DNA from: Deltaproteobacteria bacterium | GTDB taxonomy: Bacteria; Bdellovibrionota; JACOXK01 | Assembly: GCA_016182335.1 (NCBI GenBank) | Contig: JACOXK010000058.1 | Span: 1-32,000 of the forward strand | DNA: 32,000 bases | Direction of reading: 5' to 3' | Part shown: positions 7,908 to 22,044 of the stretch, one piece after another | Numbering within the stretch: the first letter of the stretch is position 1 | How the letters are laid out: each line of letters starts with the position of its first letter | Translations under genes and position numbers: made by a program | Notes under the pieces: generated by a model | Seen by the model: the letters and a program-made list of their open reading frames with translations, nothing else | Databases searched by the model: none | Told to the model about the DNA's origin: nothing

Positions 7908-9474
7908 AACAACCTCTCATATCGAAGTCAAAGAACTCTATACTAGAGAGGATGTTGAGGGTGAAAGTGGGAAGAACAGAATTGAAACTTCTGGCGCTTT
8001 TCCTTTCACTCGCGGCATTTATCCATCCATGTATCGAAAAAAATTATGGACAATGCGTCAGTATGCTGGGTTTGCTACAGCGGAAGAGTCCAATAAAAGA
8101 TATCGATATTTGTTTGATCATGGACAAACAGGATTGTCTGTAGCTTTTGATCTACCAACCCAGATGGGATTTGATTCTGACTCCCCAAAAGCGTTTGCTG
8201 AAGTAGGGCGCTCAGGAGTTGCTATCGACTCTTTACAGGACATGGAAATTCTTCTTAAAAATTTACCACTGGACCGCATTTCAACTTCTATGACGATTAA
8301 TGCAACGGCTGCCACTCTGCTTGCATGCTACATTGTGGTTGGTGAAAAGCAGGGCGTTGATACAAAAAAACTTCAAGGCACTATTCAAAACGACATTCTT
8401 AAAGAATATATTGCACGGGGTACTTATATTTATCCTCCAGAACCCTCTTTGAGATTGGTTTGTAATATTTTTTCATGGTGTCAGAAGAATTTACCCCAGT
8501 GGAATACAATCAGTATTAGCGGCTATCATATCCGAGAGGCTGGATCGAGCGCTGTGCAAGAACTGGCGTTTACACTTGCAAATGCAATCACTTATGTGGA
8601 GCAGGCTCTTAAGTCTGGCTTGAATATTGATGATTTTGCAGGACGCCTTTCCTTCTTTTTTAATGGGCATAATAATTTTTTGGAGGAGGTAGCTAAGTTT
8701 CGTGCTGCAAGAAGAATGTGGGCCAATATTATGAAAAATCGGTTTGGTGCTAAACTTCAGAGATCCTGGATGTTAAGGTTTCATACTCAAACAGGCGGGT
8801 CTACACTGATGGCAAATCAAATTGAAAACAACGTCGTGCGAGTTACTCTTCAAGCTTTGGCAGCAGTTTTAGGGGGGACTCAATCGCTTCATACAAACTC
8901 AAAAGATGAGGCTTTGTCTTTACCTTCAGACTCTGCTGCAAAACTTGCCCTACGAACTCAGCAAGTGATTGCCTACGAGTCAGGGGTAGCAGATTTTGTT
9001 GATCCGCTGGGTGGGTCTTACGCCGTTGAGAGTTTGACAAATGAGATTGAAAAGAAGGCCCTGGACTATATTTCGTTTATTGAAAAAAGGGGCGGAGTTG
9101 TTGCCTGTATTGAAGAAGGTTTTTTGCAATCTGAGATTCAGAAAGAAAGTTATGCTTATCAACAGTCTATCGAAAATAAAGAACAATTCGTTGTAGGAGT
9201 TAATATTTTCCAGGAGAATGAAAAAAAGCTTTCAAAAGTTCAAAAAATAGATGAAAGATCAATTAAGAAACAAATCAGCAAACTTCAAACATTGAGAAAG
9301 AAGAGAAATTCAAAGCTAGTACGTGAAAGTCTTTCTCGATTGGAGCAAGCCGCCAAAACGGCATCAGAAAATCTCTTTCCGTATATTCTTGAAGCCGTTC
9401 GTGGCTATGCAACGGTAGGAGAAATATCTAATACTCTGAGAAATGTTTTTGGAGAATACAAACCGTCATTTTAG
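7888..9474 (+). CDS. Methylmalonyl-CoA mutase family, large (catalytic) subunit lacking a B12-binding domain
   Basis: [90 protein letters not shown]. The track ATG at 7813 lies deep in the BCCP gene. In-frame GTG 7888 or TTG 7882 are likelier starts. Confidence 0.9.
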
Positions 9475-9557
9475 GGTTTGATAATTCATTTTATTCTGTT
9501 TTATTTCAGAATTTGAATCTCAAGGCACTTTCAAATACAAATTCACTCTTTTTATTT

Positions 9558-9647
9558 TTCAATGGATGGATTGGTGAAGATCACGAAGGATTCCTTTAAT
9601 CTCATCGTTTTCAGGATCGAATTGAAGGGATGACTCAAATTCTTTGA
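9558..9647. repeat. 90-bp direct repeat, copy A: orphan duplicate of the 3' end of the TPR gene at 21544-22041
   Basis: ttcaatggatggattggtgaagatcacg...caaattctttga matches 21543-21632 at 88/90 positions. The minus strand still reads KEFESSLQFDPENDEIKGILRDLHQSIH*. Confidence 0.97.
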
Positions 9648-9686
9648 AGTCTTTCCCGAATACAATCTCTTAGTAAGGTGTGCTAT

Positions 9687-11324
9687 TCAACGTAGGGTCG
9701 GATGATCCCTAAAAACACCGGGTTGCACCCACAATTGATCGCGCTGAATTTCCTCTAAATTTAACTGACCATTATGAAAAAGTGCTTTGAGACTTGTTAA
9801 AACTGCCTTTTCTGCAGCAACTATCTTCGATGGCGTCACTTTTCGCTTGAAATCTTCTTCAATATGAAGAGCGACATATTCAGCAATTTGAGGAGGAAGT
9901 TTAGAAATAATTAAGTTTTTATAAGCAGAGAGCTTTCCTAGAAGAACAGCGACAATGTCATCTCGTGAAAGTTGGCTTAAAAATAGAGTCAGGTCATTTT
10001 CTTCCAGAAGACTTACAAGATCAAGTGTTATAATGCTTGATTTTAATTTCATGCCAAGCGTTGTATCTGCTTTTAAAATATCGTCTGCAAGTTCGTCGGG
10101 TTTATCATGAGATTCAACTAAATTGATAAGTGCATTAAATCCGGATGTTTCGTACAGATTCAAACTTGTGAGTTGAGCAGCTCGGTGGGCCAAGCGAAAA
10201 CTTAAATACTTAAGCTCATTCCAAGGCAGTGTTTCTATTGTGGCCAGTTCCAAAGCGACTGATTTCTGATCACTATCTTTTAAATTTTTAAACACGTTAC
10301 TTCGTGTTTCAATATCGAGTTGTAAAAGAAGGAGCGCTTGGCATCGAATATCTTCACCTTTAACCAAGTGAGCTATTTTTGTTGGTTCTAAATTTTTAAG
10401 AAAATCAAAATTGGACTCAATAACTTGATTTTCTTTCAGAGACAACAAACTTTCAAGTTCTATTTCATGACGAAACTGTGTTCCTATGCGCTTTACATCG
10501 GATACGCTTAAGTGCTGCATTTTTGAAAACTCAGATGTGAGCTCCTCTGCAGAGTTATTATTAAGAACTCCCTTAAGCTCTGATCGAAGATGAGTAGGAA
10601 GTGTGATAAGGACTTGAAGTGCATGGTGTAAACCCTGCGGCGATGCTGCCCACCGTTTCAACACATTTTTTGCTGTGCTCAGATGAGAAGCAACGAGATC
10701 TGCATAATGCGCTGGGCTTTGAATTGTTAGAGAATCTCCAATCGATATCCCTTGAGGGATTTCCTGATATGAAGGCACGACAGTGGGGGAGGGTTGAGAT
10801 TCGTGTTTTAAAACTGATGGCAAAACTGTTTTTTTCCTTTGACGACGCATAAAATAGAAGATGCCCATAATAGCTGCAAGAGTGGACATAATAAGAAAAA
10901 TCAGTAAAAAATAACCTCTTAAGTTTGAGAATATAGTTGGGTGAGGCACGGCTACAAATGAGTAATTTAAATGAAGTGCTGATTGAAATGGTTGTGCTTG
11001 ATGTTCAATATATTTTTGAAGAAAATCCCTAGTTTTTTGTGGAAGTTTCTCATCAGCCAGAATATTAACATCAATACCAGAAATAACAGTAGATGTTTGT
11101 GCTGCACTACCAGATTCTTCAAATCCAGGTTCCACAATACTACGTTGAACTGTAGTTTTTGAAGAGGATTTGATGAATACATCTAAGCACAGCTGTGGAC
11201 AATGGAGTTTGAATAACTCAAGAATGACAGGTTTCAAAACGCTTTCAGGCGTTTGTCCTGCACTGAACAAAGTCGTCATCGAGAGACTCACTACTAATTG
11301 ACTTAAGAGAATGAGTTTTTTCAT
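9687..11324 (-). CDS. Membrane protein: signal peptide, extracytoplasmic domain, one TM segment and a cytoplasmic FliG-C-like domain
   Basis: N-terminal MKKLILLSQLVVSLSMTTLFSAG; TM GYFLLIFLIMSTLAAIMGIFYF followed by RRQRKK. C-terminus VSLLEENDLTLFLSQLSRDDIVAVLLGKLSAYKNLIISKLPPQIAEYVALHIEEDFKRKVTPSKIVAAEKAVLTSLKALFHNGQLNLEE resembles the FliG C-terminal pattern. Confidence 0.7.
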   Translation of the reverse strand: MKKLILLSQLVVSLSMTTLFSAGQTPESVLKPVILELFKLHCPQLCLDVFIKSSSKTTVQRSIVEPGFEESGSAAQTSTVISGIDVNILADEKLPQKTRDFLQKYIEHQAQPFQSALHLNYSFVAVPHPTIFSNLRGYFLLIFLIMSTLAAIMGIFYFMRRQRKKTVLPSVLKHESQPSPTVVPSYQEIPQGISIGDSLTIQSPAHYADLVASHLSTAKNVLKRWAASPQGLHHALQVLITLPTHLRSELKGVLNNNSAEELTSEFSKMQHLSVSDVKRIGTQFRHEIELESLLSLKENQVIESNFDFLKNLEPTKIAHLVKGEDIRCQALLLLQLDIETRSNVFKNLKDSDQKSVALELATIETLPWNELKYLSFRLAHRAAQLTSLNLYETSGFNALINLVESHDKPDELADDILKADTTLGMKLKSSIITLDLVSLLEENDLTLFLSQLSRDDIVAVLLGKLSAYKNLIISKLPPQIAEYVALHIEEDFKRKVTPSKIVAAEKAVLTSLKALFHNGQLNLEEIQRDQLWVQPGVFRDHPTLR

Positions 11325-11337
11325 AGAACCACCTTTT

Positions 11338-11982
11338 TTAATAAATTTTTAACGTTACCCTTCTGTTTATATTTCTGTATTCCTCAGCATCTGCAACTTC
11401 AGCTTTCTCTTCAAGTTTTTTAGGTCTCGTATGGGCAAATCCCCTTAATTGAATTCGATTTTCATCAATGCCGTGAAAACGCAAAAAATTAAGGAACTCC
11501 ATAGCCCTGTAGGCTGACAATTCCCAATTAGATGGAAATTTAAGTGTATGAATGGGTACATTATCTGTATGTCCCTCAACAATAAACGCCCATTTGTGAT
11601 CAATTGTTTTTAACTCCGAAACAAATGTCAAAATATGTGGCTTAGCCTCTTCCAAGAGGGCACTTTCTCCGGATTGAAATAAGAGAGAATGACTAAAATC
11701 AATTTCCAGAGACTCTTGTCCAATGCTTGTTGAAATCTTGGATTCCAAATGATTTGAGATGATAATAGAGTCAATCTGTTTTTTTAAATCGGCCAAAGAA
11801 TATTTAGGTTTTTTTTTGAAGTAATTCGTGAGCGATTCAAACCGATATGTGCTCATCACTGACATGGAGAGGAGAAATGCAAAGAAAACATAGAGATTTG
11901 TGATGAGATCTGAATAAGAAAGCAGCCATGGTGACTCATCATTCCGTGCAAACATGCTGTTTTGTACCAGTTCTTCAAGCAT
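11338..11982 (-). CDS. MotB-type stator protein (TM + OmpA/MotB peptidoglycan-binding domain)
   Basis: N-terminal WLLSYSDLITNLYVFFAFLLSMS, matching the MotB TM with conserved Asp. OmpA-like VEGHTDNVPI...NWELSAYRAMEFLNFL...RNINRRVTLKI. Confidence 0.9.
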   Translation of the reverse strand: MLEELVQNSMFARNDESPWLLSYSDLITNLYVFFAFLLSMSVMSTYRFESLTNYFKKKPKYSLADLKKQIDSIIISNHLESKISTSIGQESLEIDFSHSLLFQSGESALLEEAKPHILTFVSELKTIDHKWAFIVEGHTDNVPIHTLKFPSNWELSAYRAMEFLNFLRFHGIDENRIQLRGFAHTRPKKLEEKAEVADAEEYRNINRRVTLKIY

Positions 11983-12804
11983 TTAGATTTCCAAGCGGAT
12001 TGTCGTCGTCCCCATTTTTGGATGCGAAACAATTCGAGAGGAGCTTTCTGTGGCTGTTATGAAAGCAGCAAGATTTTCTTTTAATATCGGTCCATATACC
12101 TGGTTTTTAATAAGCTCTAAAGCTTCAATCATCATGGCATGAGATCTAGATTCCAGTTCCACATGATTGTTCACGTGACGAATGACTGGGAAGTAAAAAG
12201 CATAACTTGCAAGCAATCCGTACAAAGTCGTTAGCAACGCAAGCGCCATGCCAGCCCCAATCTGACTAAAATCGTCCATATTCTGTAACAGTGAAACCAA
12301 TCCTAACACTGTTCCCATCATGCCAAGAGCAGGTGTTATTTTTGACGAAAAATCAAACACCGAGATTTCTTTGAGGTCCTGAAGTCGCTTTGCATGCCAT
12401 TTATTTTTCAAAATACTTTTCAGTTCATCGGCATTATAATTTCCATTAAAAGTATGAATGCCTTCTCTTAAAAAGAGAGGCATATCTTGTGTGGGCGCAG
12501 CGATACGTCCACTTCGCTGATACTCTTTGGAACAATCCACAAGATGAGAAATGAGGCGTTGCTGTGATACTTTTTCAGGAGAAAAAAATACTTTAATGAG
12601 TCGACCCCAGGCCTTTAAAATATCTGAAAGTCCAAAGCTGTAGAGAACAATGAAAATGTGCCCTACAACTACAAATAAGAAGCTTGGTAGGTTAAACAAG
12701 CCTTTATATTCACTCGATCTTGATTGCATGATAAACAACAGGATCCACAAAAAACCGATAAGACCTATAAGGCTTGCGCATTTTCTCACCCACTGATAGT
12801 TCAT
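11983..12804 (-). CDS. MotA/TolQ/ExbB-family proton channel protein (MotA-like)
   Basis: Four hydrophobic segments; SSKITPALGMMGTVLGLVSLLQNMDDFSQIGAGMALALLTTLYGLLAS. Directly abuts the MotB-like gene. Confidence 0.88.
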   Translation of the reverse strand: MNYQWVRKCASLIGLIGFLWILLFIMQSRSSEYKGLFNLPSFLFVVVGHIFIVLYSFGLSDILKAWGRLIKVFFSPEKVSQQRLISHLVDCSKEYQRSGRIAAPTQDMPLFLREGIHTFNGNYNADELKSILKNKWHAKRLQDLKEISVFDFSSKITPALGMMGTVLGLVSLLQNMDDFSQIGAGMALALLTTLYGLLASYAFYFPVIRHVNNHVELESRSHAMMIEALELIKNQVYGPILKENLAAFITATESSSRIVSHPKMGTTTIRLEI

Positions 12805-13430
12805 GATTTTGTTTTTGGTGAAAGAGTTGTAGGTGAAGACGCAGGGAGGCGAGAAATAGCCTGACGAATAATAGTATTAGCAGGATCTTCTTTAAGAACC
12901 AAAGACCATGATTCTCTGGCTAAATCATACATTCCTACCTTGGATGCAACGGTCCCGCGCAAGGAGAGAAGCTTCGTATCGCTTGGATAGGATTCAACAA
13001 GGGATTCCAATGTTACGAGTGCTAGTTCATAGTCTTTTTTACGAAAATGCTCTTTTACTTTCGCCAAACCTAAGAGATAACTTTGTCTGGCTAAAGATTG
13101 GCCAGATAAGGCAACCACATCTTGACCTTGAATCTGAGAATTGTCGTCACCAGATGATGGTATAGTTTGTAACCCATCAGTGTGAGAACTTTTAAGCTCT
13201 GCAAGAGTGTAGCGCACTAAAGTCGATTCACTATTTTCTCCAAGTGCTATTTCAATAGCATTCAAACCGAAGGACCGGCGAATGGTAATGGGTGATTTCG
13301 ATGACTGAGCTGTGTCTATGGTAAATGGATTGGATATTTCAGGGGAAGAGTGTTTGGAAATTTTGCGCATGGAAGCACATCCAACAATAAGAGACAAACA
13401 GATAATGACAAAAAGTTTTTTTCTATTCAT
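12801..13430 (-). CDS. TPR-like lipoprotein
   Basis: Lipobox LSLIVGC at the N-terminus; TPR-like YELALVTLESLVESYPSDTKLLSLRGTVASKVGMYDLARESWSLVLKEDP. Overlaps the MotA-like start by 4 nt. Confidence 0.7.
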   Translation of the reverse strand: MNRKKLFVIICLSLIVGCASMRKISKHSSPEISNPFTIDTAQSSKSPITIRRSFGLNAIEIALGENSESTLVRYTLAELKSSHTDGLQTIPSSGDDNSQIQGQDVVALSGQSLARQSYLLGLAKVKEHFRKKDYELALVTLESLVESYPSDTKLLSLRGTVASKVGMYDLARESWSLVLKEDPANTIIRQAISRLPASSPTTLSPKTKS

Positions 13431-13433
13431 TGT

Positions 13434-14591
13434 TTACCACCTCATATTGATATTGAATGCAATATCTAAACAAAAACCAGAAACTTTTTTCGATTGTTTA
13501 TCAGACGAAAATTGTATTTGATTGCCAATGAGTTGAATCTTTTCAGAGCTCAGCATGGCATCTGACGGAAATAAGTAATTGATGTTGGCAGAAATTCCAA
13601 ATTTCTTTCCAATATCGAGCAAAAAACCTGGACCTAAAACAAAAGACTGATAGTTGTTTGTAAGAAGTGGGCCGCCGCCTACTGTTATATATTTTCTAAA
13701 TTTTTCTCCGCCCAGATTCATGAGGAGTTTTAACTCAAGAAGCCCCCCAGCATTGAGAAGAATGTCTTTATTGCTGGAATCTGAGAGTGGCTCAGTAAAT
13801 CCAGAGAGAATAATGCCAAAGTGATCAATAAACCCTCCCATGTACTCGAGTAGAGAGAAACTCACACTTGGATAATTCACATGATTTTCAAATCCAGGTA
13901 ATAGGAAAAAACCAGGGCTTACGGCGAGCCGATATTTAGCAAGGATGTTCACCGAGTCCGAAGGCCGTTTTGTGACAGAATCTTGTGATAGCAGCTGTCG
14001 CTCTGGATCGAGCGAAGAATATTTATCGCTCCAAATGACTTCTCCCTTAATAGCATCAAAAATGGCAACGCTCAAAACGATTTCATGTGGGGTATAATGG
14101 AATGTGCTTTCCAGGAAATAGCGAGTTCCCAAACTATGAGAGAGAGATTGCAATTCTTCATTTTTTTGCACACCCTGTTGCACAATAAGGTCATTAGCAT
14201 CCGTTGTGACAAGAGTGCGAAAGCAGCTCATACATTTGATAGATTTAATGGAGACTTTTTCAATGAGGGCCTGATCGATTCTATCTCGAAGAATATCGCG
14301 AAACTTAGGTTGGATATCACCCTGGAGATTGATTTTATACTGGCTTAATTTTTGAATACGTAAGTTTGAACTCGAAAGATCTGTAGCAAATCTCTCAACA
14401 AGAGAGTCCAGTACAGAGTAGAAATCAATTTTTCCATCAAGCGTGCTTGCATATTCCGCATTGACGTGATTTGAAAAAAACACAACACAGTTTAATCCAA
14501 GAAAAATAACGAGAAATCGCAGTAGAACAAAACGATTTTGCAACACAAAACGACCTTCACCCAACGCTAACTTTTTTTGATAAGATGTCAA
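13434..14591 (-). CDS. Secreted protein with CsgG/FlgO-like N-terminal domain and outer-membrane barrel-like C-terminal region
   Basis: Signal-like VLLRFLVIFLGLNCVVFFSNHVNA; LVERFATDLSSSNLRI...LSHSLGTRYFLESTFHYTPHEIVLSVAIFDAIKGEVIWSD; the Gly/aromatic-alternating C-terminal half resembles a beta-barrel. Confidence 0.55.
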   Translation of the reverse strand: MTSYQKKLALGEGRFVLQNRFVLLRFLVIFLGLNCVVFFSNHVNAEYASTLDGKIDFYSVLDSLVERFATDLSSSNLRIQKLSQYKINLQGDIQPKFRDILRDRIDQALIEKVSIKSIKCMSCFRTLVTTDANDLIVQQGVQKNEELQSLSHSLGTRYFLESTFHYTPHEIVLSVAIFDAIKGEVIWSDKYSSLDPERQLLSQDSVTKRPSDSVNILAKYRLAVSPGFFLLPGFENHVNYPSVSFSLLEYMGGFIDHFGIILSGFTEPLSDSSNKDILLNAGGLLELKLLMNLGGEKFRKYITVGGGPLLTNNYQSFVLGPGFLLDIGKKFGISANINYLFPSDAMLSSEKIQLIGNQIQFSSDKQSKKVSGFCLDIAFNINMRW

Positions 14592-14598
14592 CTTTCAT

Positions 14599-15639
14599 TC
14601 AGGGTAACAGTATGTGATAGCGGATATCCACTTGGTCACCAGCAGCCACATGAGACCTTTTGAGGAAAAACAACTCCTGTGTTGACTCGTTATAATGCCA
14701 CTCACTTGGGTTTGCTTTAAGACCATTAAGATAAACCTCAATAGAACCGCGTTGTGCAGCATAGGTTAAAACTTTACGAGTCATATGCTCAAAAAGTATT
14801 TGTATTATTTTATTTATGACTTGTTTTGAATCTTGCAAGAGATCACACAATTCAAGACTTATGCCAGAAGTTTGACTTACAAATTCAGCAAGAGTTGTTG
14901 CTCGTCGATACTCCAAGTTATTGCATTGATCACTTCCCTCTTTGAAAATGAGGGCAATAGGTTGGAACAGTGCTTTTGATTTTAATGTCTGCATAGAGGC
15001 TACAATGTGATCGACTGGAGTTGTTCCTTCGTCATCCGCGTTAGATATAAAAATTGGAAAGAAATGGGTATTTCCTTCTCGAAGGAATCCGCTTTTCATG
15101 AGGGTTACCAACTTCTCAAGTGGGAAATTTGATGCTTCTCCCCCAGTAAAGTTTAAAGCTCCAAGAGTTTCTGATAATTTATTGAGTCCACTCACCGTGA
15201 AAGCGTTATTCGCAAAAATATCCTCTCCCCATGGAGTACTATCATGGGATGTTATCAACCGAAGTTTGAAAGAAAGCTTTGGTCGAAGATGGTGATATTC
15301 TGGAGGGTCCATGAGAGAGGCTAAGAGAAGATGACTTGATTCTTTGAGGGCTTGAATAAAAGGTGACATTTTTTTCTTGGCATGAAGAATAAATGCTATA
15401 TCAAGGTTTCCCTGTGGCACTTCGTGAATGAAACCATCCAACCACAGCTGTGGCAGGGATGTGGCGGGAGGTTCTAATAATGGGGGATTGTCAGGTTCGT
15501 AATGTGGGCTAACAGGCGCAGGTAACGGTTTCTCTTTTTGCTTAGGTGCAATAAATTCAGGAGCTCCACAATGAAGAAAGAGTGTTGCCACAAGAAGGGA
15601 TATAAATTTATGGATTTTGAGGATCTTGTTTGACACCAT
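14599..15639 (-). CDS. Lipoprotein, VWA-like with degenerate metal site (paralog 1)
   Basis: Start at MVSNKILKIHKFISLLVATLFLHC (lipobox). LDIAFILHAKKKMSPF sits at the position of the MIDAS DxSxS in the neighbours. C-terminal domain SEWHYNESTQELFFLKRSHVAAGDQVDIRYH is shared with the paralogs. The track ORF opens at 15777. Confidence 0.6.
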   Translation of the reverse strand: MVSNKILKIHKFISLLVATLFLHCGAPEFIAPKQKEKPLPAPVSPHYEPDNPPLLEPPATSLPQLWLDGFIHEVPQGNLDIAFILHAKKKMSPFIQALKESSHLLLASLMDPPEYHHLRPKLSFKLRLITSHDSTPWGEDIFANNAFTVSGLNKLSETLGALNFTGGEASNFPLEKLVTLMKSGFLREGNTHFFPIFISNADDEGTTPVDHIVASMQTLKSKALFQPIALIFKEGSDQCNNLEYRRATTLAEFVSQTSGISLELCDLLQDSKQVINKIIQILFEHMTRKVLTYAAQRGSIEVYLNGLKANPSEWHYNESTQELFFLKRSHVAAGDQVDIRYHILLP

Positions 15640-16846
15640 ACAACACTGTAATTTTTCCACCTTGCGGCACTTTGGGTTTGTTCGTAAGGATGATTTCATT
15701 TTTTTGAGTATCATAAGTAAAGTCACGTCCCATAAGCAGTGGATAATAATTATAAAGAACTTTAAAAGACTTGCCATCGAAAGTATGGGGAATTTTTTTA
15801 AGAATAATTCTTTTTGTGTAGGATAAAGAGAGTTGTGCTACATCACTCAATGTATTCTTTTTCAAAAGCTCACATAAATCCAGTCGATGTCCATAGAAAT
15901 GTTGGTGACTGAGTTGTTCTAATTTATCTGATGTCTTGGTTAAACTGTAAGGACAAGTCTGAATATTCATGCGAAATAGCGCTGTAAATACGCTTAAGTA
16001 CGGTGGTCTATAAATTTTATGAATTTGTGACAAAAAATGAGAGGTTGCTATGTCATGAGAAAGCTCGTCCGAACTTATGAAGAAAAATACACTGAGCGCA
16101 TCTTCCTCTCGAAAATCGGCAGAGTTATGTAATAACTCCAGTGTTTTAGAATAAGAAAGAATATGAGGTTGGCCTTGATATCCAAGCTGTGACATGAATT
16201 GAGGAAAGACGGCAAAATCTCGTGCCGTACTTATAAAGTTTTTCCCACTCACAGAAATGAGACGTGCTTCATCAGAAGGCATGAATCCTATCTTATATTG
16301 AAGATGAGAGAGATTGTTTGATAAAAATTCTGGAGCAAATTTTGTGCTTGCTAAGACAAGATCAGAGTGAATGTCTTCCATAGGTTCCGAGGTATCAACG
16401 ACAAAAAGTATTGAGAGTTTTCCAGAAGGAAGGCCGTAATAAAAATCTTCCTCATAAAGTTGAAAATCTGGAGGAGTTGGCCCACCAGGTTGTGTAGGAT
16501 CTGGAAGAGGAATGGGCACTGGATCAGGATTGCCTCCTCCCCCGCCCCCTGGAGTTCCACCTTCACCGGGATTGGTACCTGGTGCGCTCCCCCCTCCTGA
16601 ACCGCCATTAGGAGGAGATCCCGGAGTGCCACCGCCTCCTGGGTTGGTGTCAGGTGAACCATTACTATCTCCACCAGAACCAGCGTCTGGAGGGACAATT
16701 TTTCCATCCGGTGTTTTATTTTCAACATAGAGATTAAAGACTCGGCGAGAGCTTGAACCGCAAGATAAATTGAAAACTAACGGTGCAACAATGGCTAATG
16801 GAACTATTACTGACTTCACGGTTGAAGGTAACCTTAAGTCATTCAT
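15608..16846 (-). CDS. Lipoprotein, VWA-like domain with Gly/Pro-rich linker (paralog 2)
   Basis: Lipobox LVFNLSC; linker of G/P/N residues; LSILFVVDTSEPMEDIHSDLVLAS; C-terminal DFTYDTQKNEIILTNKPKVPQGGKITVLY. GTG at 16819 is an alternative start. Confidence 0.7.
   Translation of the reverse strand: MNDLRLPSTVKSVIVPLAIVAPLVFNLSCGSSSRRVFNLYVENKTPDGKIVPPDAGSGGDSNGSPDTNPGGGGTPGSPPNGGSGGGSAPGTNPGEGGTPGGGGGGNPDPVPIPLPDPTQPGGPTPPDFQLYEEDFYYGLPSGKLSILFVVDTSEPMEDIHSDLVLASTKFAPEFLSNNLSHLQYKIGFMPSDEARLISVSGKNFISTARDFAVFPQFMSQLGYQGQPHILSYSKTLELLHNSADFREEDALSVFFFISSDELSHDIATSHFLSQIHKIYRPPYLSVFTALFRMNIQTCPYSLTKTSDKLEQLSHQHFYGHRLDLCELLKKNTLSDVAQLSLSYTKRIILKKIPHTFDGKSFKVLYNYYPLLMGRDFTYDTQKNEIILTNKPKVPQGGKITVLYGVKQDPQNP
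16481..16694 (-). repeat. Low-complexity segment encoding a Gly/Pro/Asn-rich linker
   Basis: Encodes PDAGSGGDSNGSPDTNPGGGGTPGSPPNGGSGGGSAPGTNPGEGGTPGGGGGGNPDPVP... Confidence 0.85.
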
Positions 16847-16858
16847 TCAGGTAATTTT

Positions 16859-16887
16859 ATTACAAAAGCTCTTCGTATCATTGTCAA
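16859..16887 (-). promoter_or_regulatory. Putative sigma70-type promoter for the minus-strand operon
   Basis: On the minus strand: TTGACA (16887-16882), 17-nt spacer, TGTAAT (16864-16859), just upstream of the 16846 start. Confidence 0.5.
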
Positions 16888-16891
16888 ATAA

Positions 16892-16919
16892 TTGGAGCTT
16901 TGTTAGATCATAATATAAT
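16892..16919 (+). promoter_or_regulatory. Putative sigma70-type promoter for the plus-strand operon
   Basis: TTGGAG (16892-16897), 16-nt spacer, TATAAT (16914-16919), ahead of the GTG start at 16936. Confidence 0.45.
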
Positions 16920-16935
16920 TAGGTATCGTTGTTCA

Positions 16936-18012
16936 GTGAAAAAAATTATCATTTTAGTTGCTTTTGCATCTCTGACATCGTGCGAAAAAACGGGTCTTAA
17001 GTACGAAACTTCTTTAGAGGATGATCCTTCACGTATTGTTTTTGTTGATCCTCGAATTATTTCCTCCCATAAACCTCCATGGATGCAACCGTATAGACGC
17101 GTCATTGAGCGTGATACTGCGCCTGTAAATCAACCGCCTTCGCGCGGAATTTTTACTAACGTGGTGGATAAGTATGAGAAGAAAAAAAATCATGAAGAGG
17201 CTGATATTTTATGGGTTATTGATAATTCGTGCAGCATGGCTGAAGAACGTGACAAAGTTTCACAAAATCTCGATGCTTTTATGAGGGACTTTAAATTGAG
17301 TCATGTTGATTTTCATATGGGTGTTATTTCAACACACACCCATGATGCTCTTTTTTATGGAGCCCCACCCGTGCTTCTTTCAAATGATCCAGAATTAGAG
17401 CGCAGATTTTCAGAACGTGTTCGGATGCCGCAAGTATGCGGTTTTTCTGCTGCTTTGCATGCTGCCCATTTGGCGCTGAGCGAGCCGCGAATTTCTGGAT
17501 ATAACAAAGATTTTTTACGATCAGAAGCGCATCTCATTATTATTATCATTTCTGACGCAGATGAAGACTATAAAATGAGCAGCTCTGAATATCTTAGTTT
17601 TTTCCAGTCACTTAAAGCAAGTGAACCGCATAAAGTCGTCATTAACTCCATCGTTGGAGATTCTCCGAGTGGTTGTTCATCTGCTGGCGGGAATGCAGAA
17701 CCTGGGTTGCAATACATTGAATTAACACAAAGTACTCGAGGTTTTTTTGAAATCATTTGCAGTAACAACTTTAAAGAAAGCATGAACAATATTGGCCGTA
17801 ATCTCGATAAATATATCAACTCTTATCCACTGACTCATATTCCTTCAATTCGATATCCTCTTGTTGTTACAATCAATGGTCGTGTCGTGGAGCGACACCC
17901 AATACATGGCTGGGTGTACAATGCCGAACTCAATCTTATTTTATTTGAGGGAGATATTAAACCTATTGTTGGAGATAAAATTGAAATCGCTTACCTTCAT
18001 GAAGAAAATTAG
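16936..18012 (+). CDS. Lipoprotein with VWA domain, intact MIDAS (paralog 3)
   Basis: GTG start gives VKKIIILVAFASLTSC (lipobox). ADILWVIDNSCSMAEERDKVSQNLDAF carries DxSxS; C-terminal HGWVYNAELNLILFEGDIKPIVGDKIEIAYLHEEN. The track ORF begins at TTG 16900. Confidence 0.82.
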   Translation: MKKIIILVAFASLTSCEKTGLKYETSLEDDPSRIVFVDPRIISSHKPPWMQPYRRVIERDTAPVNQPPSRGIFTNVVDKYEKKKNHEEADILWVIDNSCSMAEERDKVSQNLDAFMRDFKLSHVDFHMGVISTHTHDALFYGAPPVLLSNDPELERRFSERVRMPQVCGFSAALHAAHLALSEPRISGYNKDFLRSEAHLIIIIISDADEDYKMSSSEYLSFFQSLKASEPHKVVINSIVGDSPSGCSSAGGNAEPGLQYIELTQSTRGFFEIICSNNFKESMNNIGRNLDKYINSYPLTHIPSIRYPLVVTINGRVVERHPIHGWVYNAELNLILFEGDIKPIVGDKIEIAYLHEEN

Positions 18013-19033
18013 TCTTCTTATAAGCTTATTTCTAGTGGGCTTGACCTCTCAAGGATTAGCACTGGTTTGGTGGGGCGAAGAAATAACCTCACTTAAATAC
18101 ATTATGCCCATCCAATATTTTGTACGAAATGAAGATGTTTTTTACATGGGGCTTCAAAACTTTGGTATTGATCGTGTCATTTACAATAATTACAAACTTT
18201 CTCGTGATAAAGTTTTTAGATTCTCTGGTATCATGGACCCTTCTGTGAAATTAAACTTCCTTCTTAAAGGCGATATGCTCATAGTTGGAGGCATTTACGA
18301 CGGTTTTTTAGCACTCGATACAAAATCGGATTATCCATCACCCACTTCAAAGAGACATGATCTTGTTTTTAAGCCCAATGAAAATACAATTGTTTATTCT
18401 TCTCTTCTCAAATCCCTCTTATGGAAAGGTCAACTTGTACTTCTTACGGCTGATCAGGTTATTCTGGGTAGTCTGCAGAACCCACTTAAGTTTAACGTCA
18501 ATGCGAGCGTTGGTTTAGCGCCAAATTATCCTTTGCAACCCAATGATTGGAAAGAATTTTGGGCTACCGATATGGCGCTCTATGGCAATTATTTGTACGT
18601 TCTTCTTGCGCATGAGAAAACTCCGCAGATTGCATACCTTAACCTTTCACAGCCACTGGAAAGTCTTAAAGTAAATTATGTTCCCCTCAATGTTTCAGAA
18701 TATTATCTTAAATCCTTAGCGGTTAGTGATAGTAGATTATATATAACTCAGAATAAGACACTTCATAGTTTTGTCATTGATGAAGAAGGCATGCCGACCG
18801 TGGAGTGGTCGCATACCCAGAAGCACTTCATAGAAACTGTAACTACGTTTTCGATGGGTATTATTCTCTCGTTCTTTGAGGCTGGACTTGCGTTCTTTGA
18901 AAATCAAGACCTTACAAAAGAACAGGCCATTATTTTTCCTCCAAAAACTTGGGAGCAGGTTGAGGTTGTGGATAATCTTTTGTTTGGTTCAGCAGGAGAA
19001 GATGGTTTTTATGTATATCAAAAATATAATTAA
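17999..19033 (+). CDS. Secreted protein of unknown function, beta-propeller-like
   Basis: Internal ATG at 17999 gives MKKISLLISLFLVGLTSQGLALVWW (signal peptide) and overlaps the preceding stop by 14 nt. Repeated hydrophobic strands such as KGDMLIVGGIYDGFLALD, YGNYLYVLLAHE, SDSRLYITQNKTLHSFVI. Confidence 0.6.
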   Translation: MKKISLLISLFLVGLTSQGLALVWWGEEITSLKYIMPIQYFVRNEDVFYMGLQNFGIDRVIYNNYKLSRDKVFRFSGIMDPSVKLNFLLKGDMLIVGGIYDGFLALDTKSDYPSPTSKRHDLVFKPNENTIVYSSLLKSLLWKGQLVLLTADQVILGSLQNPLKFNVNASVGLAPNYPLQPNDWKEFWATDMALYGNYLYVLLAHEKTPQIAYLNLSQPLESLKVNYVPLNVSEYYLKSLAVSDSRLYITQNKTLHSFVIDEEGMPTVEWSHTQKHFIETVTTFSMGIILSFFEAGLAFFENQDLTKEQAIIFPPKTWEQVEVVDNLLFGSAGEDGFYVYQKYN

Positions 19034-19667
19034 GACATTGATATTTTTCTCTTTGTGGGGATGGACTGGAACTATCTTGGGTGAGTCGCCTTCGCAAAGC
19101 ACTTGGCTGGATTACGAAATCCGTCTTAAAGCCGTGTACAACCAAAAATATGAGCACCATCATCGACATGAGCTCTCCACTTTTTCATCACTGTATTTTA
19201 GAAATGATCTTAATTTATCATATGGTTTTGGAGCTGATTATGCCTATCATTTCACTCCTACTTTAAGTTGGGAAGCGGCTCATTTTCTTTACTTAAATCA
19301 AGTTGAGACAATACTGCGCCAGGATATAAGAAATAAAACAGGTTTGATACCGGATGTAGAAGAAAATGAATTCTTTGTTACTTCTTCAATCATGTTTCAT
19401 CCTGCGTACGGCAAATTGGCTTTCTTTGGAAGGCACATTGCGTATTTTGATCTCTATGTTGTTGCGGGTGGAGGCATTCGAAAACTCTTGAACCTTTCTC
19501 AACTTAAATCTGCTTTTTCGTTTGGTGCAGGTTTCAGATGCTATCTGAGTCACAAACTTACTCTCAAGATTGATGCCAGAGACATGTTGTTTCAGGAAGA
19601 ACATCAATCCGGTGCATCTATTATTCATTCTTTTACACCTGTTTTAGGATTGAGTTTACTTCTATGA
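19011..19667 (+). CDS. Outer-membrane beta-barrel domain protein (myxobacterial/Bdellovibrio-type)
   Basis: Signal MYIKNIIKTLIFFSLWGWTGTILG, then RLKAVYNQKYEHHHRHELSTFSS...LSYGFGADYAYHFTPTLSWEAAHFLYL...FDLYVVAGGGI, resembling the delta-proteobacterial outer-membrane barrel family. The track ORF opens at 18876. Confidence 0.7.
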   Translation: MYIKNIIKTLIFFSLWGWTGTILGESPSQSTWLDYEIRLKAVYNQKYEHHHRHELSTFSSLYFRNDLNLSYGFGADYAYHFTPTLSWEAAHFLYLNQVETILRQDIRNKTGLIPDVEENEFFVTSSIMFHPAYGKLAFFGRHIAYFDLYVVAGGGIRKLLNLSQLKSAFSFGAGFRCYLSHKLTLKIDARDMLFQEEHQSGASIIHSFTPVLGLSLLL

Positions 19668-20734
19668 AGTTAAAACTCTGTGTCATTACATATTTCATAT
19701 TTACTTTTGCCAATGCAGACTTTCCCCGAATGGCGGATGCATGGCGTGCCTATGCTAACCAAGATTACATTCAATCTTTGCAACAGTTGTACAGGGTCCG
19801 CAGCATTGCTCAAGAAAGAGTGCTTGCTGAAACCTTTTATTTGGAAGGACTTTTGGCTTACCGATTGGGTTATAGTTTGAGGTTGGCAGCCATTTATCAG
19901 ACTTATGAAGTGCAGTTCATGCATAAGCTCTCTTCATTGCCAAATAATATAAAAAAAGATGTTTGCTTGTATTGGGTGAGGCTCTCAAGTCTTCTAGCAG
20001 ATGTTTATAAAAGTATGCTGGTGGTACAATCTGTAGAATTGTTCCAGTCTTTGTCTTCGACTGAAAGTGCACTTCGCACGCCTTCTGGATCTGGGGCTTA
20101 CACGTGGCCTCTGATACTAGCTACTGAGAAAGAAGTACAGGAGGTATGGTTGGATGAATTGGGTGCTGATACCATAATCACTATTTCTGAAAAGAAAGAA
20201 AAGGGGGAGAGTCTTACTCCTGAAATTATTTTTGTTCGTTTAAGCGATGCAGTTTCACGCTCTCTTGTTTTTTATGAACAAAAAATTCTAGAGAAGGATT
20301 TTTTTTATAATCGCCTGCGTTTGCTCTTTTTAGATTATAAATTGGATAGAGGAGAAGGAGGAGAGGAGTTTTTGGTTGTATCTCAAAAAGCTTATCTGAA
20401 ACTCTATGGAGAAAGTCGGTTTTCAATGCTCCAGTCACTCATTCAACTTCGGCTGAGTAGAATCAACTCTAAACTTAAGACATTAAGGGCCATGAGTTTT
20501 AAGAAAAGTGTTACTGCAGTGACAAGCCAAAACTACAAAACTGATCAACCCAATATAGAGCATGTTATTGTTCTAGGCATGATTGAAACAAAGCCTATTC
20601 GCAAGGAAGCAGTGAGGCAAGGGGTGTCTTCTTTTTTCTCGGCTGATCCTGTACCCTATATACCTGGTGCCGGTCCGGAGAGTTGGAATGAGAAAATTGC
20701 AGAGTCCATCCATGACAAAAAAATCTCAGATTGA
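19664..20734 (+). CDS. Secreted/periplasmic helical repeat (TPR-like) protein
   Basis: Signal MKLKLCVITYFIFTFANA; helical repeats WRAYANQDYIQSLQQLYRVRSIAQERVLAETFYLEGLLAYRLGY; overlaps the previous gene by 4 nt. Confidence 0.55.
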   Translation: MKLKLCVITYFIFTFANADFPRMADAWRAYANQDYIQSLQQLYRVRSIAQERVLAETFYLEGLLAYRLGYSLRLAAIYQTYEVQFMHKLSSLPNNIKKDVCLYWVRLSSLLADVYKSMLVVQSVELFQSLSSTESALRTPSGSGAYTWPLILATEKEVQEVWLDELGADTIITISEKKEKGESLTPEIIFVRLSDAVSRSLVFYEQKILEKDFFYNRLRLLFLDYKLDRGEGGEEFLVVSQKAYLKLYGESRFSMLQSLIQLRLSRINSKLKTLRAMSFKKSVTAVTSQNYKTDQPNIEHVIVLGMIETKPIRKEAVRQGVSSFFSADPVPYIPGAGPESWNEKIAESIHDKKISD

Positions 20735-21539
20735 GTTTCGGCTGCTTGTCTTCAACAAGTCTTCTCTGATTAAAAAACTATCTTTTCGAACGGAAGAACT
20801 CATTCTTGGTTCGATAGCTCAATCTCAGGTTAATTTAACTAAGGCAGATGGTACTGTTCTTTTAGAAGGTAGATTCTACTGGAAGTCGAGGTACGTTCTG
20901 ATTTTTGAAAAACACTTCATGCAATCAGAAGAAATACAAGCAACTTTACTCCAGAATCACAATGCAAGTGCTGCCACGTTTGAGTATCAGAATGATGAGA
21001 TGGTAATACAGGTGAGATCTTTGCTCATAGGAGAACCGCCTGATTCTCTGTCAATACGACCTACCTTCACTCAAAATCTGTCTGTTCCAACGATAAAAAA
21101 ACAAGTTCATAAATCAGTATTTGTGACTGCAATGATAGTTCTTGTTGTGCAACTGAGCTTAATAGTAAAACTCAATGAGCGCAAAAACGTGAGATTAGAG
21201 GGGCATGAACAACAAATCTCTAAAGTTTTAGCCCCCACGGTCAACAAACCGTTCATGCCACGTATCCCAGGGCCTAAGCATTATGAAAAAATTATCTTAA
21301 AGAACAAAAAGGATATCGAGTTTTGTCAGAAAAACTTCGATTTTGAGGATGGCCCCGTTCAGTTCAAAGTGCTTATTAATCCTATGGGTGGAGTCTTTTC
21401 TGTCGATGTTTTGTCTTCCACACTTGGTGTGGAAATAATGGAGTGCTTGAATGCGAGAATTAAATCATGGTTGTTTCCCCCTATTGAAAATATTTCAAAA
21501 ACATTATTTTTTGCTGTGAATTTTAAAAAGGAATCTTGA
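20712..21539 (+). CDS. Single-TM protein with AgmX/PglI (GltG/GltJ)-type C-terminal domain and possible degenerate FHA-like N-terminus
   Basis: TM SVFVTAMIVLVVQLSLIV; C-terminus DIEFCQKNFDFEDGPVQFKVLINPMGGVFSVDVLSSTLGVEIMECLNARIKSWLFPPIEN matches the AgmX/TonB-like pattern. Start MTKKSQIEFRLLVFN at 20712; the track ORF opens at 20667. Confidence 0.7.
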   Translation: MTKKSQIEFRLLVFNKSSLIKKLSFRTEELILGSIAQSQVNLTKADGTVLLEGRFYWKSRYVLIFEKHFMQSEEIQATLLQNHNASAATFEYQNDEMVIQVRSLLIGEPPDSLSIRPTFTQNLSVPTIKKQVHKSVFVTAMIVLVVQLSLIVKLNERKNVRLEGHEQQISKVLAPTVNKPFMPRIPGPKHYEKIILKNKKDIEFCQKNFDFEDGPVQFKVLINPMGGVFSVDVLSSTLGVEIMECLNARIKSWLFPPIENISKTLFFAVNFKKES

Positions 21540-21542
21540 CCA

Positions 21543-21632
21543 TTCAATGGATGGATTGGTGAAGATCACGAAGGATTCCTTTAATTTCATCGTTTTCGGG
21601 ATCGAATTGAAGGGATGACTCAAATTCTTTGA
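21543..21632. repeat. 90-bp direct repeat, copy B, within the intact TPR gene 3' end
   Basis: 88/90 identical to 9558-9647; the two differences are synonymous in the TPR reading frame (GAG/GAA and CCT/CCC). Confidence 0.97.
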
Positions 21633-22041
21633 TGGCTTGATTGAGCCAACCCTTTTCGAAATAAATTCTTCCTAAATTAATATGGGGGTAGTGCCTGTAG
21701 GCGTACCTCTTCGATAGTTTTGCCATTTCAAGCCAAGCCATAGCTTCATCCATTTTTCCAAGCCTCATAAGATAGGAGCCTATATCATTGTAGGGATTCC
21801 CAAAATCTGGATCAATAGCAATGGCTTTTTTGCATAATTCAATGGCTTCGCTCAGTTGCTCTTTCATAGACAGCATCCAACCCCAGTAGGTATAGGCCTC
21901 TGGAGTTGGTTCATGACCAATGGATTGTTTGAAACATGAAATCGCAGAATCAATATCTTTTTGGGCCGCATAAGAGCAACCGCTATCCACAAGTTGCAGT
22001 GCCAAGAGAAGCTTCTTATCTAAAATCTTTCTCTCATTCAC
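21544..22041 (-). CDS. Tetratricopeptide repeat protein
   Basis: TPR motifs: PEAYTYWGWMLSMKEQLSEAIELCKKAIAIDPDFGNPYNDIGSYLMRLGKMDEAMAWLEMA and HINLGRIYFEKGWLNQAIKEFESSLQFDPEN. Confidence 0.85.
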   Translation of the reverse strand: MNERKILDKKLLLALQLVDSGCSYAAQKDIDSAISCFKQSIGHEPTPEAYTYWGWMLSMKEQLSEAIELCKKAIAIDPDFGNPYNDIGSYLMRLGKMDEAMAWLEMAKLSKRYAYRHYPHINLGRIYFEKGWLNQAIKEFESSLQFDPENDEIKGILRDLHQSIH

Positions 22042-22044
22042 TTC

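What the first reader, a model, noticed from the sequence alone, without database searches (positions are those of the whole stretch)
9558..21632. 90-bp direct repeats bracket the whole machine-like gene block
9558-9647 and 21543-21632 are in the same orientation and match at 88/90 positions, offset by 11,985 bp. Copy B is the last 29 codons plus stop of the intact TPR gene. Copy A is an orphan fragment with an in-frame stop just upstream. Both differences are synonymous, so the copies may derive from diverged alleles of a functional gene rather than a recent slip. Repeat B starts 3 nt after the stop of the last plus-strand gene. This resembles insertion at a gene 3' end with restoration of that end, without a visible integrase or terminal inverted repeats. 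RecA-mediated recombination could precisely delete the cassette and leave an intact TPR gene next to the mutase gene.
Basis: partly seen in the sequence, partly recalled or inferred. Interest (0 to 1): 0.82.

Follow-up and report, generated by a model that had tools for sequence, protein, structure and literature searches.

The report
Gene-end repeats flank inserted motor cluster
A 12-kb cluster of genes for a motor-driven cell-envelope machine lies between two near-identical 90-base copies of the end of a neighbouring gene, which is the footprint of an insertion that rebuilt the gene it landed in. This is a familiar kind of genomic island, unusual mainly in carrying no enzyme for its own movement.

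Summary
9558-9647 and 21543-21632 match at 88/90 positions (96 nt at 96%, blastn E=9e-39) and are the only repeat of that strength in the window. Copy B is the 3' end plus stop of an intact 165-aa TPR gene. Copy A is an orphan with an in-frame TAA upstream and no start codon. Both differences are synonymous transitions.

A related groundwater MAG (TPR 66% and mutase 72% aa identity), and an independent assembly of the same organism, have the TPR gene tail-to-tail with the mutase gene and nothing between them.

The interval holds exactly 12 genes: a MotA/MotB stator, a membrane-anchored FliG-like protein, VWA/MIDAS-like lipoproteins and an outer-membrane barrel. All 12 recur together in another MAG, next to a different gene. 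The window contains no integrase, transposase, tRNA or terminal inverted repeat, and the block's composition matches the host's.

Best reading: a recent Campbell-type insertion at the TPR 3' end that restored the gene, topologically like e14 at icd. The recombinase acted in trans, was lost, or was host RecA. This is a known kind of feature. Evidence comes from one MAG contig and one fairly distant empty site. The allele-origin argument is not significant (n=2).

The parts
9558..9653 (-). Copy A: orphan fragment equal to the last ~29 codons plus stop of the TPR gene (core 9558-9647). It is left beside the mutase gene, in the position the TPR 3' end occupies in the empty site.
   Evidence: position relative to the mutase compared with L001
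21543..21638 (-). Copy B: the functional 3' end plus TGA of the intact TPR gene (core 21543-21632). The homology ends 1 nt past the stop codon.
9475..9557 (.). 83-nt AT-rich spacer between the mutase stop and the copy A stop. It is presumed original intergenic DNA. It is absent in L001, where the two genes overlap by 4 nt.
   Evidence: no Rfam family and no unusual fold
9648..9686 (.). Left junction: 39 nt between the copy A core and the stop of the FliG-like gene. It shows no similarity to the TPR sequence upstream of copy B.
9687..11324 (-). FliG-like protein (545 aa): signal peptide, one TM helix, then FliG_M and FliG_C domains. Last gene of the 7-gene minus-strand operon.
   Evidence: Pfam FliG_C 40.5 bits (cutoff 23.3) and FliG_M 31.8 bits (cutoff 25); FliG structure 3hjl E=8e-5; TIGR00207 far below cutoff; topology read from the sequence
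11338..11982 (-). MotB-type stator subunit (plug plus OmpA-like peptidoglycan-binding domain).
11983..12804 (-). MotA/PomA-type stator subunit.
   Evidence: Pfam MotA_ExbB; best solved relative PomA 8bri, E=4e-25
12801..13430 (-). Small lipoprotein with weak TPR signal (209 aa).
   Evidence: ortholog in L023
13434..14591 (-). Unknown 385-aa protein. It is the first gene of the module (385 / 209 / MotA / MotB / FliG-like) that is inverted here relative to L023.
14599..16846 (-). Two paralogous lipoprotein-like ORFs (14599-15777 and 15608-16846), distantly related to the MIDAS/VWA protein at 16900. The second has a Gly/Pro-rich linker.
16900..18012 (+). VWA/MIDAS-type lipoprotein with a DxSxS motif (DNSCS). 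It is the best conserved block protein: 53-61% identity to homologs in L004, L022 and L023.
   Evidence: NF052240 partial hit E=2e-10, below cutoff
17861..19033 (+). Unknown 390-aa secreted protein, conserved in all block loci.
18876..19667 (+). Outer-membrane beta-barrel protein.
   Evidence: TIGR04565 OMP_myx_plus 99.5 bits (cutoff 60)
19664..21539 (+). Last two block genes (356 aa and 290 aa, unknown function). Both have orthologs in L004 and L023, so they are not mobility genes. The 290-aa gene ends 3 nt before copy B.
21544..22041 (-). Intact 165-aa TPR gene, the insertion target.
22045..23820 (-). S8 (fervidolysin-like) protease gene, immediately upstream of TPR on the same strand. The same pairing is seen in L003.
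7813..9474 (+). Methylmalonyl-CoA mutase gene, the original convergent neighbour of TPR.

Best explanation
In an ancestor of this bacterium (a low-GC Bdellovibrionota-like groundwater MAG) the small TPR gene lay tail-to-tail with the methylmalonyl-CoA mutase gene. A 12-kb piece of DNA then recombined into the TPR gene about 29 codons before its stop. That DNA consisted of exactly one 12-gene system plus a copy of the last ~90 nt of TPR ending at the stop codon. The topology is that of a Campbell integration, in which one crossover between the TPR-like segment on the incoming (circular or att-bearing) DNA and the chromosomal TPR end leaves that segment duplicated as a direct repeat on both sides. 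Copy B keeps the TPR reading frame complete. Copy A is the displaced, promoterless stub still attached to the old spacer and the mutase gene. The block encodes no recombinase. The crossover was therefore catalysed by something outside it: a site-specific integrase acting in trans or since lost (as in cis-mobilizable elements), or the host's homologous recombination acting on the ~90 nt of homology. The host-like composition of the block and the 98% identity of the repeats point to a recent event. The donor was a very close relative or another locus of the same genome. The repeats are long enough (43-nt perfect run) for occasional RecA-dependent deletion, which would restore TPR next to the mutase. 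Shown: the repeat, the gene content, the empty site in a relative, and the absence of mobility genes. Inferred: the direction of the event (insertion rather than loss), its recency, the circular intermediate, the catalyst, and the capacity for excision.
For: The repeat is real and unique in the window. Its boundaries are sharp. One boundary falls 1 nt past the TPR stop codon, as expected when the incoming copy serves only to complete the ORF. An empty site, TPR convergent with the mutase and followed by BCCP, biotin carboxylase and carboxyltransferase, is present in L001 and in the independent Logan contig L002. The repeats are 97.8% identical, whereas TPR in the window and in L001 is only 73% identical at the nucleotide level. 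The duplication is therefore much younger than that split. All 12 genes between the repeats have orthologs clustered in L023, and most are also in L004 and L022. The repeats thus bracket one complete functional unit with 39 nt and 3 nt to spare, and both terminal genes are full length. The visible flanks of the block in L023 (left) and L004 (both sides) are unrelated to mutase or TPR. No close homologs of block proteins come from L001's assembly. The e14 element at icd, with its icdC C-terminal pseudogene, has the same anatomy (PMC13626634).
Against: No integrase, transposase, tRNA, terminal inverted repeat or dyad in the repeat was found. No decayed mobility gene is present either, because the block is fully occupied by the 12 conserved genes. 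There is no compositional contrast with the flanks. Only one empty site is known, and it is in a relative with 46-75% aa identity whose gene upstream of TPR differs. No second filled site, no attP-like copy of the TPR end and no variant of this organism was found in metagenome or viral collections. The structure rests on a single MAG contig whose proteins are singletons in the databases, and the reads could not be inspected.
Confidence: 0.62

Rival explanations
1. Intragenomic rearrangement without a Campbell-type crossover. The block is native to the lineage and was moved to the TPR/mutase junction by an illegitimate or replication-based event. Candidates are template switching, capture of DNA at two nicks ~90 nt apart followed by fill-in, or homology-facilitated illegitimate recombination. 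The ~90-nt duplication is a by-product, possibly of the same event that inverted the 385 / MotA / MotB / FliG-like module.
For: The block's composition is that of the host. The five-gene module ending in FliG-like, whose 3' end forms the left junction, is inverted here relative to L023, L004 and L024. L025 shows yet another arrangement, so this block rearranges often. No recombinase or att-like dyad was found. The left repeat boundary is fuzzy, with 4 of 6 matches just beyond the core.
Against: A random duplication has no reason to end 1 nt after the TPR stop codon. Known target duplications made by staggered cuts are far shorter than 90 nt (general knowledge). Both terminal block genes and TPR are left intact. 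No microhomology or other scar was identified.
Confidence: 0.18
2. The block is ancestral at this position. Either L001's lineage lost it by recombination between the repeats, or copy A is a late local duplication. No insertion occurred in the window's lineage.
For: Only one empty site is known, and it is in a distant relative. There is no compositional signal of foreign origin. Deletion between direct repeats would leave exactly the L001 arrangement.
Against: The repeats are 98% identical although copy A is non-coding, while orthologous genes of the two lineages differ by 25-54% at the protein level. That would require continuous gene conversion. A late 90-nt duplication would have to land by chance exactly where the TPR end lies in the empty site. 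More distant TPR loci (L006-L008, L026-L028) have neither the block nor the mutase next to TPR.
Confidence: 0.08
3. Assembly artefact. The contig path through a short repeat is wrong, and the real molecules are an uninterrupted mutase/TPR locus plus a separate (possibly circular) 12-kb molecule, or two strains mixed together.
For: This is a single MAG contig with no independent assembly. Contig L003, from a related organism, loses homology to the window 9-15 nt from the repeat boundary and continues into an N-terminally truncated Asn_synthase fragment, as a mis-join would.
Against: The two copies differ at two internal positions, and the longest shared exact run is 43 nt. That is shorter than the k-mers and reads normally used, so the path is determined. 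Both junctions must exist in reads in any case. Composition is uniform across both junctions. Even the alternative path implies a 12-kb circle carrying a TPR-end copy, which is the proposed integration intermediate.
Confidence: 0.07

Closest known systems
e14 element (and phage 21) integrated in the icd gene of E. coli K-12, with the icdC C-terminal pseudogene
   Same: The element sits inside the 3' end of a protein-coding gene and supplies a replacement 3' end, so the gene stays intact. The displaced original end remains as an orphan fragment at the far side. The two copies differ by a few conservative or synonymous changes. Deletion between them regenerates a single functional gene (PMC13626634, citing Hill et al. 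1989).
   Different: e14 encodes its own integrase/excisionase and phage genes and excises on SOS induction. The block here has no recombinase or phage gene at all. Its composition is host-like and its cargo is a single 12-gene envelope system.
Cis-mobilizable elements (CIMEs): decayed ICE/IME that keep attL and attR but have lost integration and transfer genes
   Same: Flanked by direct repeats that include the 3' end of the target gene, and with no integrase of its own. Movement is possible only with a recombinase supplied by another element (definition in PMC5704250).
   Different: CIMEs are recognised by remnants of ICE/IME modules and by a cognate element that uses the same att site. Neither was found here. 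The repeat is also much longer than the att repeats I recall for the Streptococcus CIMEs (own recollection, not checked against a source).
Agl-Glt gliding / bacterial focal-adhesion machinery of Myxococcus (cargo comparison)
   Same: An ion-driven inner-membrane motor combined with TPR lipoprotein(s), outer-membrane beta-barrels and a VWA-domain lipoprotein adhesin (CglB) in an envelope-spanning complex (PMC9946355). The block's barrel matches TIGR04565 'OMP_myx_plus'.
   Different: The motor here is a MotA/PomA-MotB type stator with OmpA-like anchor plus a membrane-anchored FliG-like protein, not TolQR-type AglRQS. No Glt protein family was matched by name.
Flagellar stator-rotor pair MotAB/PomAB-FliG
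   Same: MotA, MotB (with plug) and FliG_M/FliG_C domains are encoded side by side. The best solved relative of the MotA is flagellar PomA.
   Different: All three score far below the NCBIfam equivalog cutoffs. The FliG-like protein has a signal peptide, a periplasmic segment and a TM helix instead of FliG_N. No other flagellar gene is nearby. Published phylogeny places flagellar stators in a clade apart from non-flagellar ones (PMC12505986), so a flagellar-type stator in this neighbourhood would be atypical.

Membership tests
Integrative island at the 3' end of a protein-coding gene with 3'-end restoration (e14/icd type) | Direct repeats at both ends, one being the 3' end of the intact target gene and the other an orphan fragment | tested here: met
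Integrative island at the 3' end of a protein-coding gene with 3'-end restoration (e14/icd type) | Empty site in relatives: the target gene directly abuts the far-side flank | tested here: met
   L001 and L002 have TPR convergent with the mutase. This is one species only, at 66-72% aa identity.
Integrative island at the 3' end of a protein-coding gene with 3'-end restoration (e14/icd type) | Integrase/recombinase gene inside the element, next to an att site | tested here: not met
   Pfam, NCBIfam and PADLOC scans of all 12 block ORFs and all flanking ORFs found none. All 12 genes are conserved members of the cargo system.
Integrative island at the 3' end of a protein-coding gene with 3'-end restoration (e14/icd type) | Atypical composition relative to the host | tested here: not met
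   GC 38.9% vs 39.0%; tetranucleotide distance within the null; the block's signature is closest to its own flanks
Integrative island at the 3' end of a protein-coding gene with 3'-end restoration (e14/icd type) | Excision to a circular form and regeneration of attB | not testable with these tools
   This needs the reads of the source sample or PCR. The source contig is not in the look-up index.
Cis-mobilizable element (CIME) | attL/attR retained, integration and transfer genes absent | tested here: inconclusive
   The repeats are present and no mobility genes are found. Whether the repeats are recombinase substrates is unknown. No dyad was found in them.
Cis-mobilizable element (CIME) | Remnants of ICE/IME modules, or a cognate element using the same att site | tested here: not met
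   There are no remnants. The TPR-end pattern is absent from viral and metagenome contigs. Block proteins are absent from plasmids.
Transposon / insertion sequence | Transposase, terminal inverted repeats, short target-site duplication | tested here: not met
   No transposase. No terminal inverted repeats. The duplication is ~90 nt.
Zorya anti-phage system (cargo) | Long-tailed ZorA plus ZorB plus ZorC/D or other effector genes | tested here: not met
   PADLOC gave only generic ZorB-type hits to MotB and a ZorA2 hit at E=0.003. The MotA is 273 aa, and no ZorC, ZorD or ZorE was found.
Flagellar motor (cargo) | MotA, MotB and FliG reach equivalog scores; other flagellar genes present | tested here: not met
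   Scores are 118 vs 341 (PomA), 117 vs 283 (MotD) and 34.7 vs 226.7 (FliG). There are no other flagellar genes in the window.
Agl-Glt type gliding machinery (cargo) | TolQR-type AglRQS motor with Glt outer-membrane barrels, TPR proteins and a VWA adhesin | tested here: inconclusive
   The barrel domain TIGR04565 is met. VWA/MIDAS and TPR signals are partial. The motor is MotAB-type, not TolQR-type.

The most novel reading that the evidence does not exclude
A complete, self-contained ion-driven envelope machine moves between closely related genomes or loci as a discrete 12-kb cassette. The machine combines a flagellar-type MotA/MotB stator, a membrane-anchored FliG-like coupling protein, VWA/MIDAS lipoproteins and an outer-membrane barrel, and is a candidate gliding or adhesion apparatus of Bdellovibrionota-like bacteria. 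The cassette carries no recombinase and relies only on a ~90-nt copy of a host gene's 3' end for integration and reversible loss.
Probability: 0.2. Interest if true: 0.65.

Novelty: new member of a known kind. Interest (0 to 1): 0.4.

Why it matters
If the insertion reading is right, a whole proton- or sodium-driven surface machine can be gained, and probably lost, in one step at a defined chromosomal site. The pair L001 (empty) and window (filled) then offers a natural with/without comparison for a system of unknown function. The cargo may matter more than the bracket. It places a flagellar-type stator and a FliG-like protein in a non-flagellar, adhesin-rich neighbourhood in a phylum whose gliding motor and adhesins are still unidentified (PMC13104615). 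The bracket itself is an ordinary island footprint. Its only unusual point is the complete absence of mobility genes or their remnants.

Tried and rejected
1. Extended or degraded homology beyond the repeat. An apparent IVFGK/IYFEK resemblance upstream of copy A was tested and is not better than shuffles.
2. Terminal inverted repeats of the block and dyad symmetry inside the repeat: none.
3. Integrase, transposase, tRNA or tmRNA anywhere in the window: none.
4. An RNA family or stable structure in the mutase/FliG-like intergenic region: none; fold z-score -0.03.
5. Promoter and terminator scans: at chance level.
6. Composition contrast (GC, tetranucleotides): none.
7. Retrieving the source contig or an independent assembly by exact protein look-up: not on record.
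8. Back-translated patterns of the TPR C-terminus searched in JGI metagenome contigs (two scans) and viral contigs: no match.
9. tblastn of block proteins against plasmids: no match.
10. The genome-contig scan with a TPR alignment returned only L001's contig as a close relative. The window's own MAG is not in that collection. More distant TPR loci have other neighbours and no repeat of the TPR end.
11. Flanking direct repeats around block homologs L004 and L023: none within the little flank available.
12. Zorya as the identity of the cargo: rejected.
13. L003 as a second event at the same site: left open. Both genes at its junction are truncated, so a chimeric contig is at least as likely.
14. 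L023 being the same organism as L001, which would have shown the block at another locus of the empty-site genome: rejected on tetranucleotide signature, r=0.56 against 0.80-0.84 between L001 and the window flanks.

Full report
OBSERVATION. The repeat is real and is the only one of its kind in the window. Alignment, the repeat finder and a window-versus-window blastn all give 9558-9653 versus 21543-21638. That is 96 nt with 4 mismatches (E=8.6e-39), an 88/90 core and an offset of 11,985 nt. No other non-self hit exists in the 32 kb.

In the frame of the TPR gene the two core differences are GAG/GAA (Glu) and CCT/CCC (Pro). Both are synonymous transitions. Copy B is the last ~29 codons, the TGA and one further base of an intact 165-aa TPR ORF at 21544-22041(-). 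Copy A has an in-frame TAA eight codons before the homology starts and no start codon. Copy B begins 3 nt after the stop of the last plus-strand gene. The 80 nt on either side of the repeat are no more similar than shuffled sequence, so both boundaries are sharp. One boundary falls 1 nt beyond the TPR stop codon.

WHAT LIES BETWEEN AND AROUND. To the left are the propionyl-CoA carboxylase subunits and methylmalonyl-CoA mutase (7813-9474, +). To the right are TPR, an S8 protease, a glycosyltransferase and the cell-division genes FtsZ, FtsA, FtsQ, Ddl, MurB and MurC. These are core genes.

The interval is completely filled by 12 genes in two divergent operons. On the minus strand lie two lipoprotein-like paralogs, a 385-aa unknown, a small TPR-like lipoprotein, MotA (best solved relative PomA, E=4e-25), MotB (plug plus OmpA domain) and a 545-aa protein. 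That last protein has a signal peptide, one TM helix and FliG_M plus FliG_C domains (Pfam above gathering cutoffs; FliG structure 3hjl E=8e-5). On the plus strand lie a VWA/MIDAS-type lipoprotein with a DxSxS motif, a 390-aa unknown, an outer-membrane barrel (TIGR04565, 99.5 bits against a cutoff of 60) and two further unknowns.

Nothing in the window resembles an integrase, transposase, phage gene, tRNA or Rfam family. There are no terminal inverted repeats and no dyad inside the repeat. Only 39 nt and 3 nt separate the terminal block genes from the repeats.

RELATED SEQUENCES. The window comes from a 41-kb contig of a groundwater MAG labelled 'Deltaproteobacteria bacterium' (locus tags HYS98_). 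The nearest TPR homologs further out belong to Bdellovibrionota.

The closest relative with usable context is L001 (GCA_016186995.1). Its aa identities to the window are TPR 66%, mutase 72% and carboxyltransferase 75%. In L001 the TPR gene is directly convergent with the mutase gene, their ends overlapping by 4 nt, and the same carboxylase genes lie behind the mutase. An independent Logan assembly of the same organism (L002) shows the same junction. Copy A in the window sits exactly where the TPR 3' end sits in that arrangement. More distant TPR loci (43-51% identity) have other neighbours. TPR-mutase adjacency is therefore a feature of this small clade.

The block is rare but real. The FliG-like protein has two full-length relatives among billions of proteins. 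All 12 genes recur together in L023 (GCA_964507905.1; 27-67% aa identity), and most recur in L004, L022 and L024. The visible flanks of those loci are unrelated to mutase or TPR and carry no flanking repeat. L023 is not L001's organism (tetranucleotide r=0.56). No close homolog of a block protein comes from L001's assembly, although that MAG may be incomplete.

In L023, L004 and L024 the module 385 / 209 / MotA / MotB / FliG-like is convergent with the two lipoprotein genes. In the window it is inverted, making a single 7-gene operon. L025 shows a further arrangement. The left junction of the block in the window is thus the 3' end of a module that has itself been turned around.

COMPOSITION. 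GC is 38.9% inside and 39.0% outside the block. The tetranucleotide distance between inside and outside lies within the distribution for arbitrary 12-kb segments. The block's normalised signature is closer to its own flanks (r=0.82-0.85) than to the homologous blocks L023 and L004 (r=0.70-0.71).

INTERPRETATION. The simplest history has three steps. TPR and mutase were neighbours. A 12-kb DNA carrying a TPR-end copy then recombined with the chromosomal TPR end. The homologous segment ended up on both sides, as in a Campbell integration. Three observations favour this over a random duplication.
- Copy A is at the ancestral position of the TPR end.
- The homology stops at the stop codon, so the incoming copy does just what is needed to keep TPR intact.
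- The repeats enclose one complete conserved gene set with intact terminal genes.

The 98% identity of a non-coding orphan, set against 73% nucleotide identity of TPR between the window and L001, makes the event much younger than that split. Together with the host-like composition, this points to a donor that was a very close relative or the same genome.

The catalyst is unknown. The anatomy is that of e14 at icd with its icdC stub (PMC13626634). The lack of any recombinase recalls cis-mobilizable elements (PMC5704250). However, no remnant of a mobile-element backbone and no cognate element were found, so membership in either family is not established. Host homologous recombination on ~90 nt is an equally viable catalyst.

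RIVALS. (a) An illegitimate or replication-based relocation within the genome, perhaps linked to the module inversion, would explain the host-like composition and the missing recombinase. It would not explain the stop-codon boundary.

(b) An ancestral block lost in L001, or a late local duplication making copy A, would require long-term homogenisation of a non-coding stub or a remarkable coincidence of position.

(c) An assembly artefact is unlikely. The copies differ internally and share at most 43 identical bases in a row, so the path is determined by ordinary k-mers. Both junctions must exist in reads. The alternative path through the graph would itself be an empty site plus a 12-kb circle carrying the TPR end. 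I could not inspect reads.

THE SYNONYMOUS-DIFFERENCE ARGUMENT. Two sites cannot distinguish 'diverged functional alleles' from 'identical at birth, then two neutral transitions'. At both sites the outgroup L001 has the copy-B base, which is what drift in the orphan copy would produce.

AN UNEXPLAINED NEIGHBOUR. L003 is a 1.5-kb ENA scaffold from a closer relative (TPR 83% aa, S8 upstream as in the window). It loses homology to the window at 21647, which is 9-15 nt from the repeat boundary. It ends TPR with an immediate TGA and runs into an Asn_synthase fragment lacking its first ~47 profile positions. A second rearrangement at the same spot would hint at a recombination hotspot. Two truncated genes joined on a short metagenomic scaffold are at least as likely to be a mis-join.

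VERDICT. The insertion-with-restoration reading is supported by an empty site, but the mechanism and any present-day mobility are unproven. As a genomic feature it is a new example of a known kind, an integrase-less island bracketed by a duplicated gene end. The more unusual element is the cargo: a flagellar-type stator and a membrane-anchored FliG-like protein embedded among adhesin-like lipoproteins and an outer-membrane barrel. It is reminiscent in logic of Agl-Glt (PMC9946355) but uses a different motor class (PMC12505986), in a phylum whose gliding motor is unidentified (PMC13104615).

Noticed in passing
window 9687-12804 (with L023 2147-5293): A MotA/PomA-type stator, a MotB with plug and OmpA domain, and a FliG_M/FliG_C protein that carries a signal peptide and a TM helix are encoded together with no other flagellar gene nearby. 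HMMER against 1.84 billion representatives finds 318 relatives (E<=1e-3). Most of the best-scoring hits listed are 600-830-aa proteins with the FliG-like part at the C-terminus, and canonical ~330-aa FliG proteins rank lower. This looks like an undescribed family of membrane- or N-terminally extended FliG-like proteins.
   Followed up: partly
window 9687-14591 vs L023 425-5251, L004 132-1772, L024, L025: The five-gene module 385 / 209 / MotA / MotB / FliG-like is inverted in the window relative to L023, L004 and L024. L004 lacks MotAB upstream of the FliG-like gene, and L025 has the FliG-like gene convergent with MotB/MotA. That makes at least four arrangements of the same gene set.
   Followed up: partly
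L003 1140-1559 (aligns to the window up to 21647): In a closer relative (TPR 83% aa) the TPR gene is cut after ...RIYFEKG, 9-15 nt from the window's repeat boundary, and is fused to an N-terminally truncated Asn_synthase-like ORF. This is either a chimeric scaffold or a second rearrangement at the same spot.
   Followed up: partly
L020 8390-11266 (GCA_975651895.1, GC 70%): A distant homolog (36% identity) of the block's VWA/MIDAS lipoprotein lies immediately after a MotA_ExbB / ExbD pair and near a VIT/VWA protein. The association of this lipoprotein family with ion-driven motors is therefore not confined to the MotAB-type block.
   Followed up: no
window 14599-15777 and 15608-16846: The two lipoprotein-like ORFs overlap by 170 nt as listed. 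Homologs align only from about residue 59-94 of the 392-aa ORF, so its true start is probably downstream. The 412-aa protein has a long Gly/Pro-rich linker (about residues 45-125), and its L004 homolog contains an 11-copy 9-nt tandem repeat (L004 4525-4677).
   Followed up: no
window 21544-23820 vs L001 8785-10498: Synteny between the window and L001 also breaks on the 5' side of TPR: S8 protease, glycosyltransferase and FtsZ in the window, against M20 peptidase, GSDH and PBP1 in L001. The small TPR gene therefore sits at a rearrangement boundary on both sides.
   Followed up: no
L027 1-221: In a distant TPR locus (51% identity, ENA WOOD18-1 scaffold) a Phage_integrase gene lies about 5.8 kb upstream of TPR, on the opposite side from the TPR 3' end. 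No link to the TPR end was seen.
   Followed up: no
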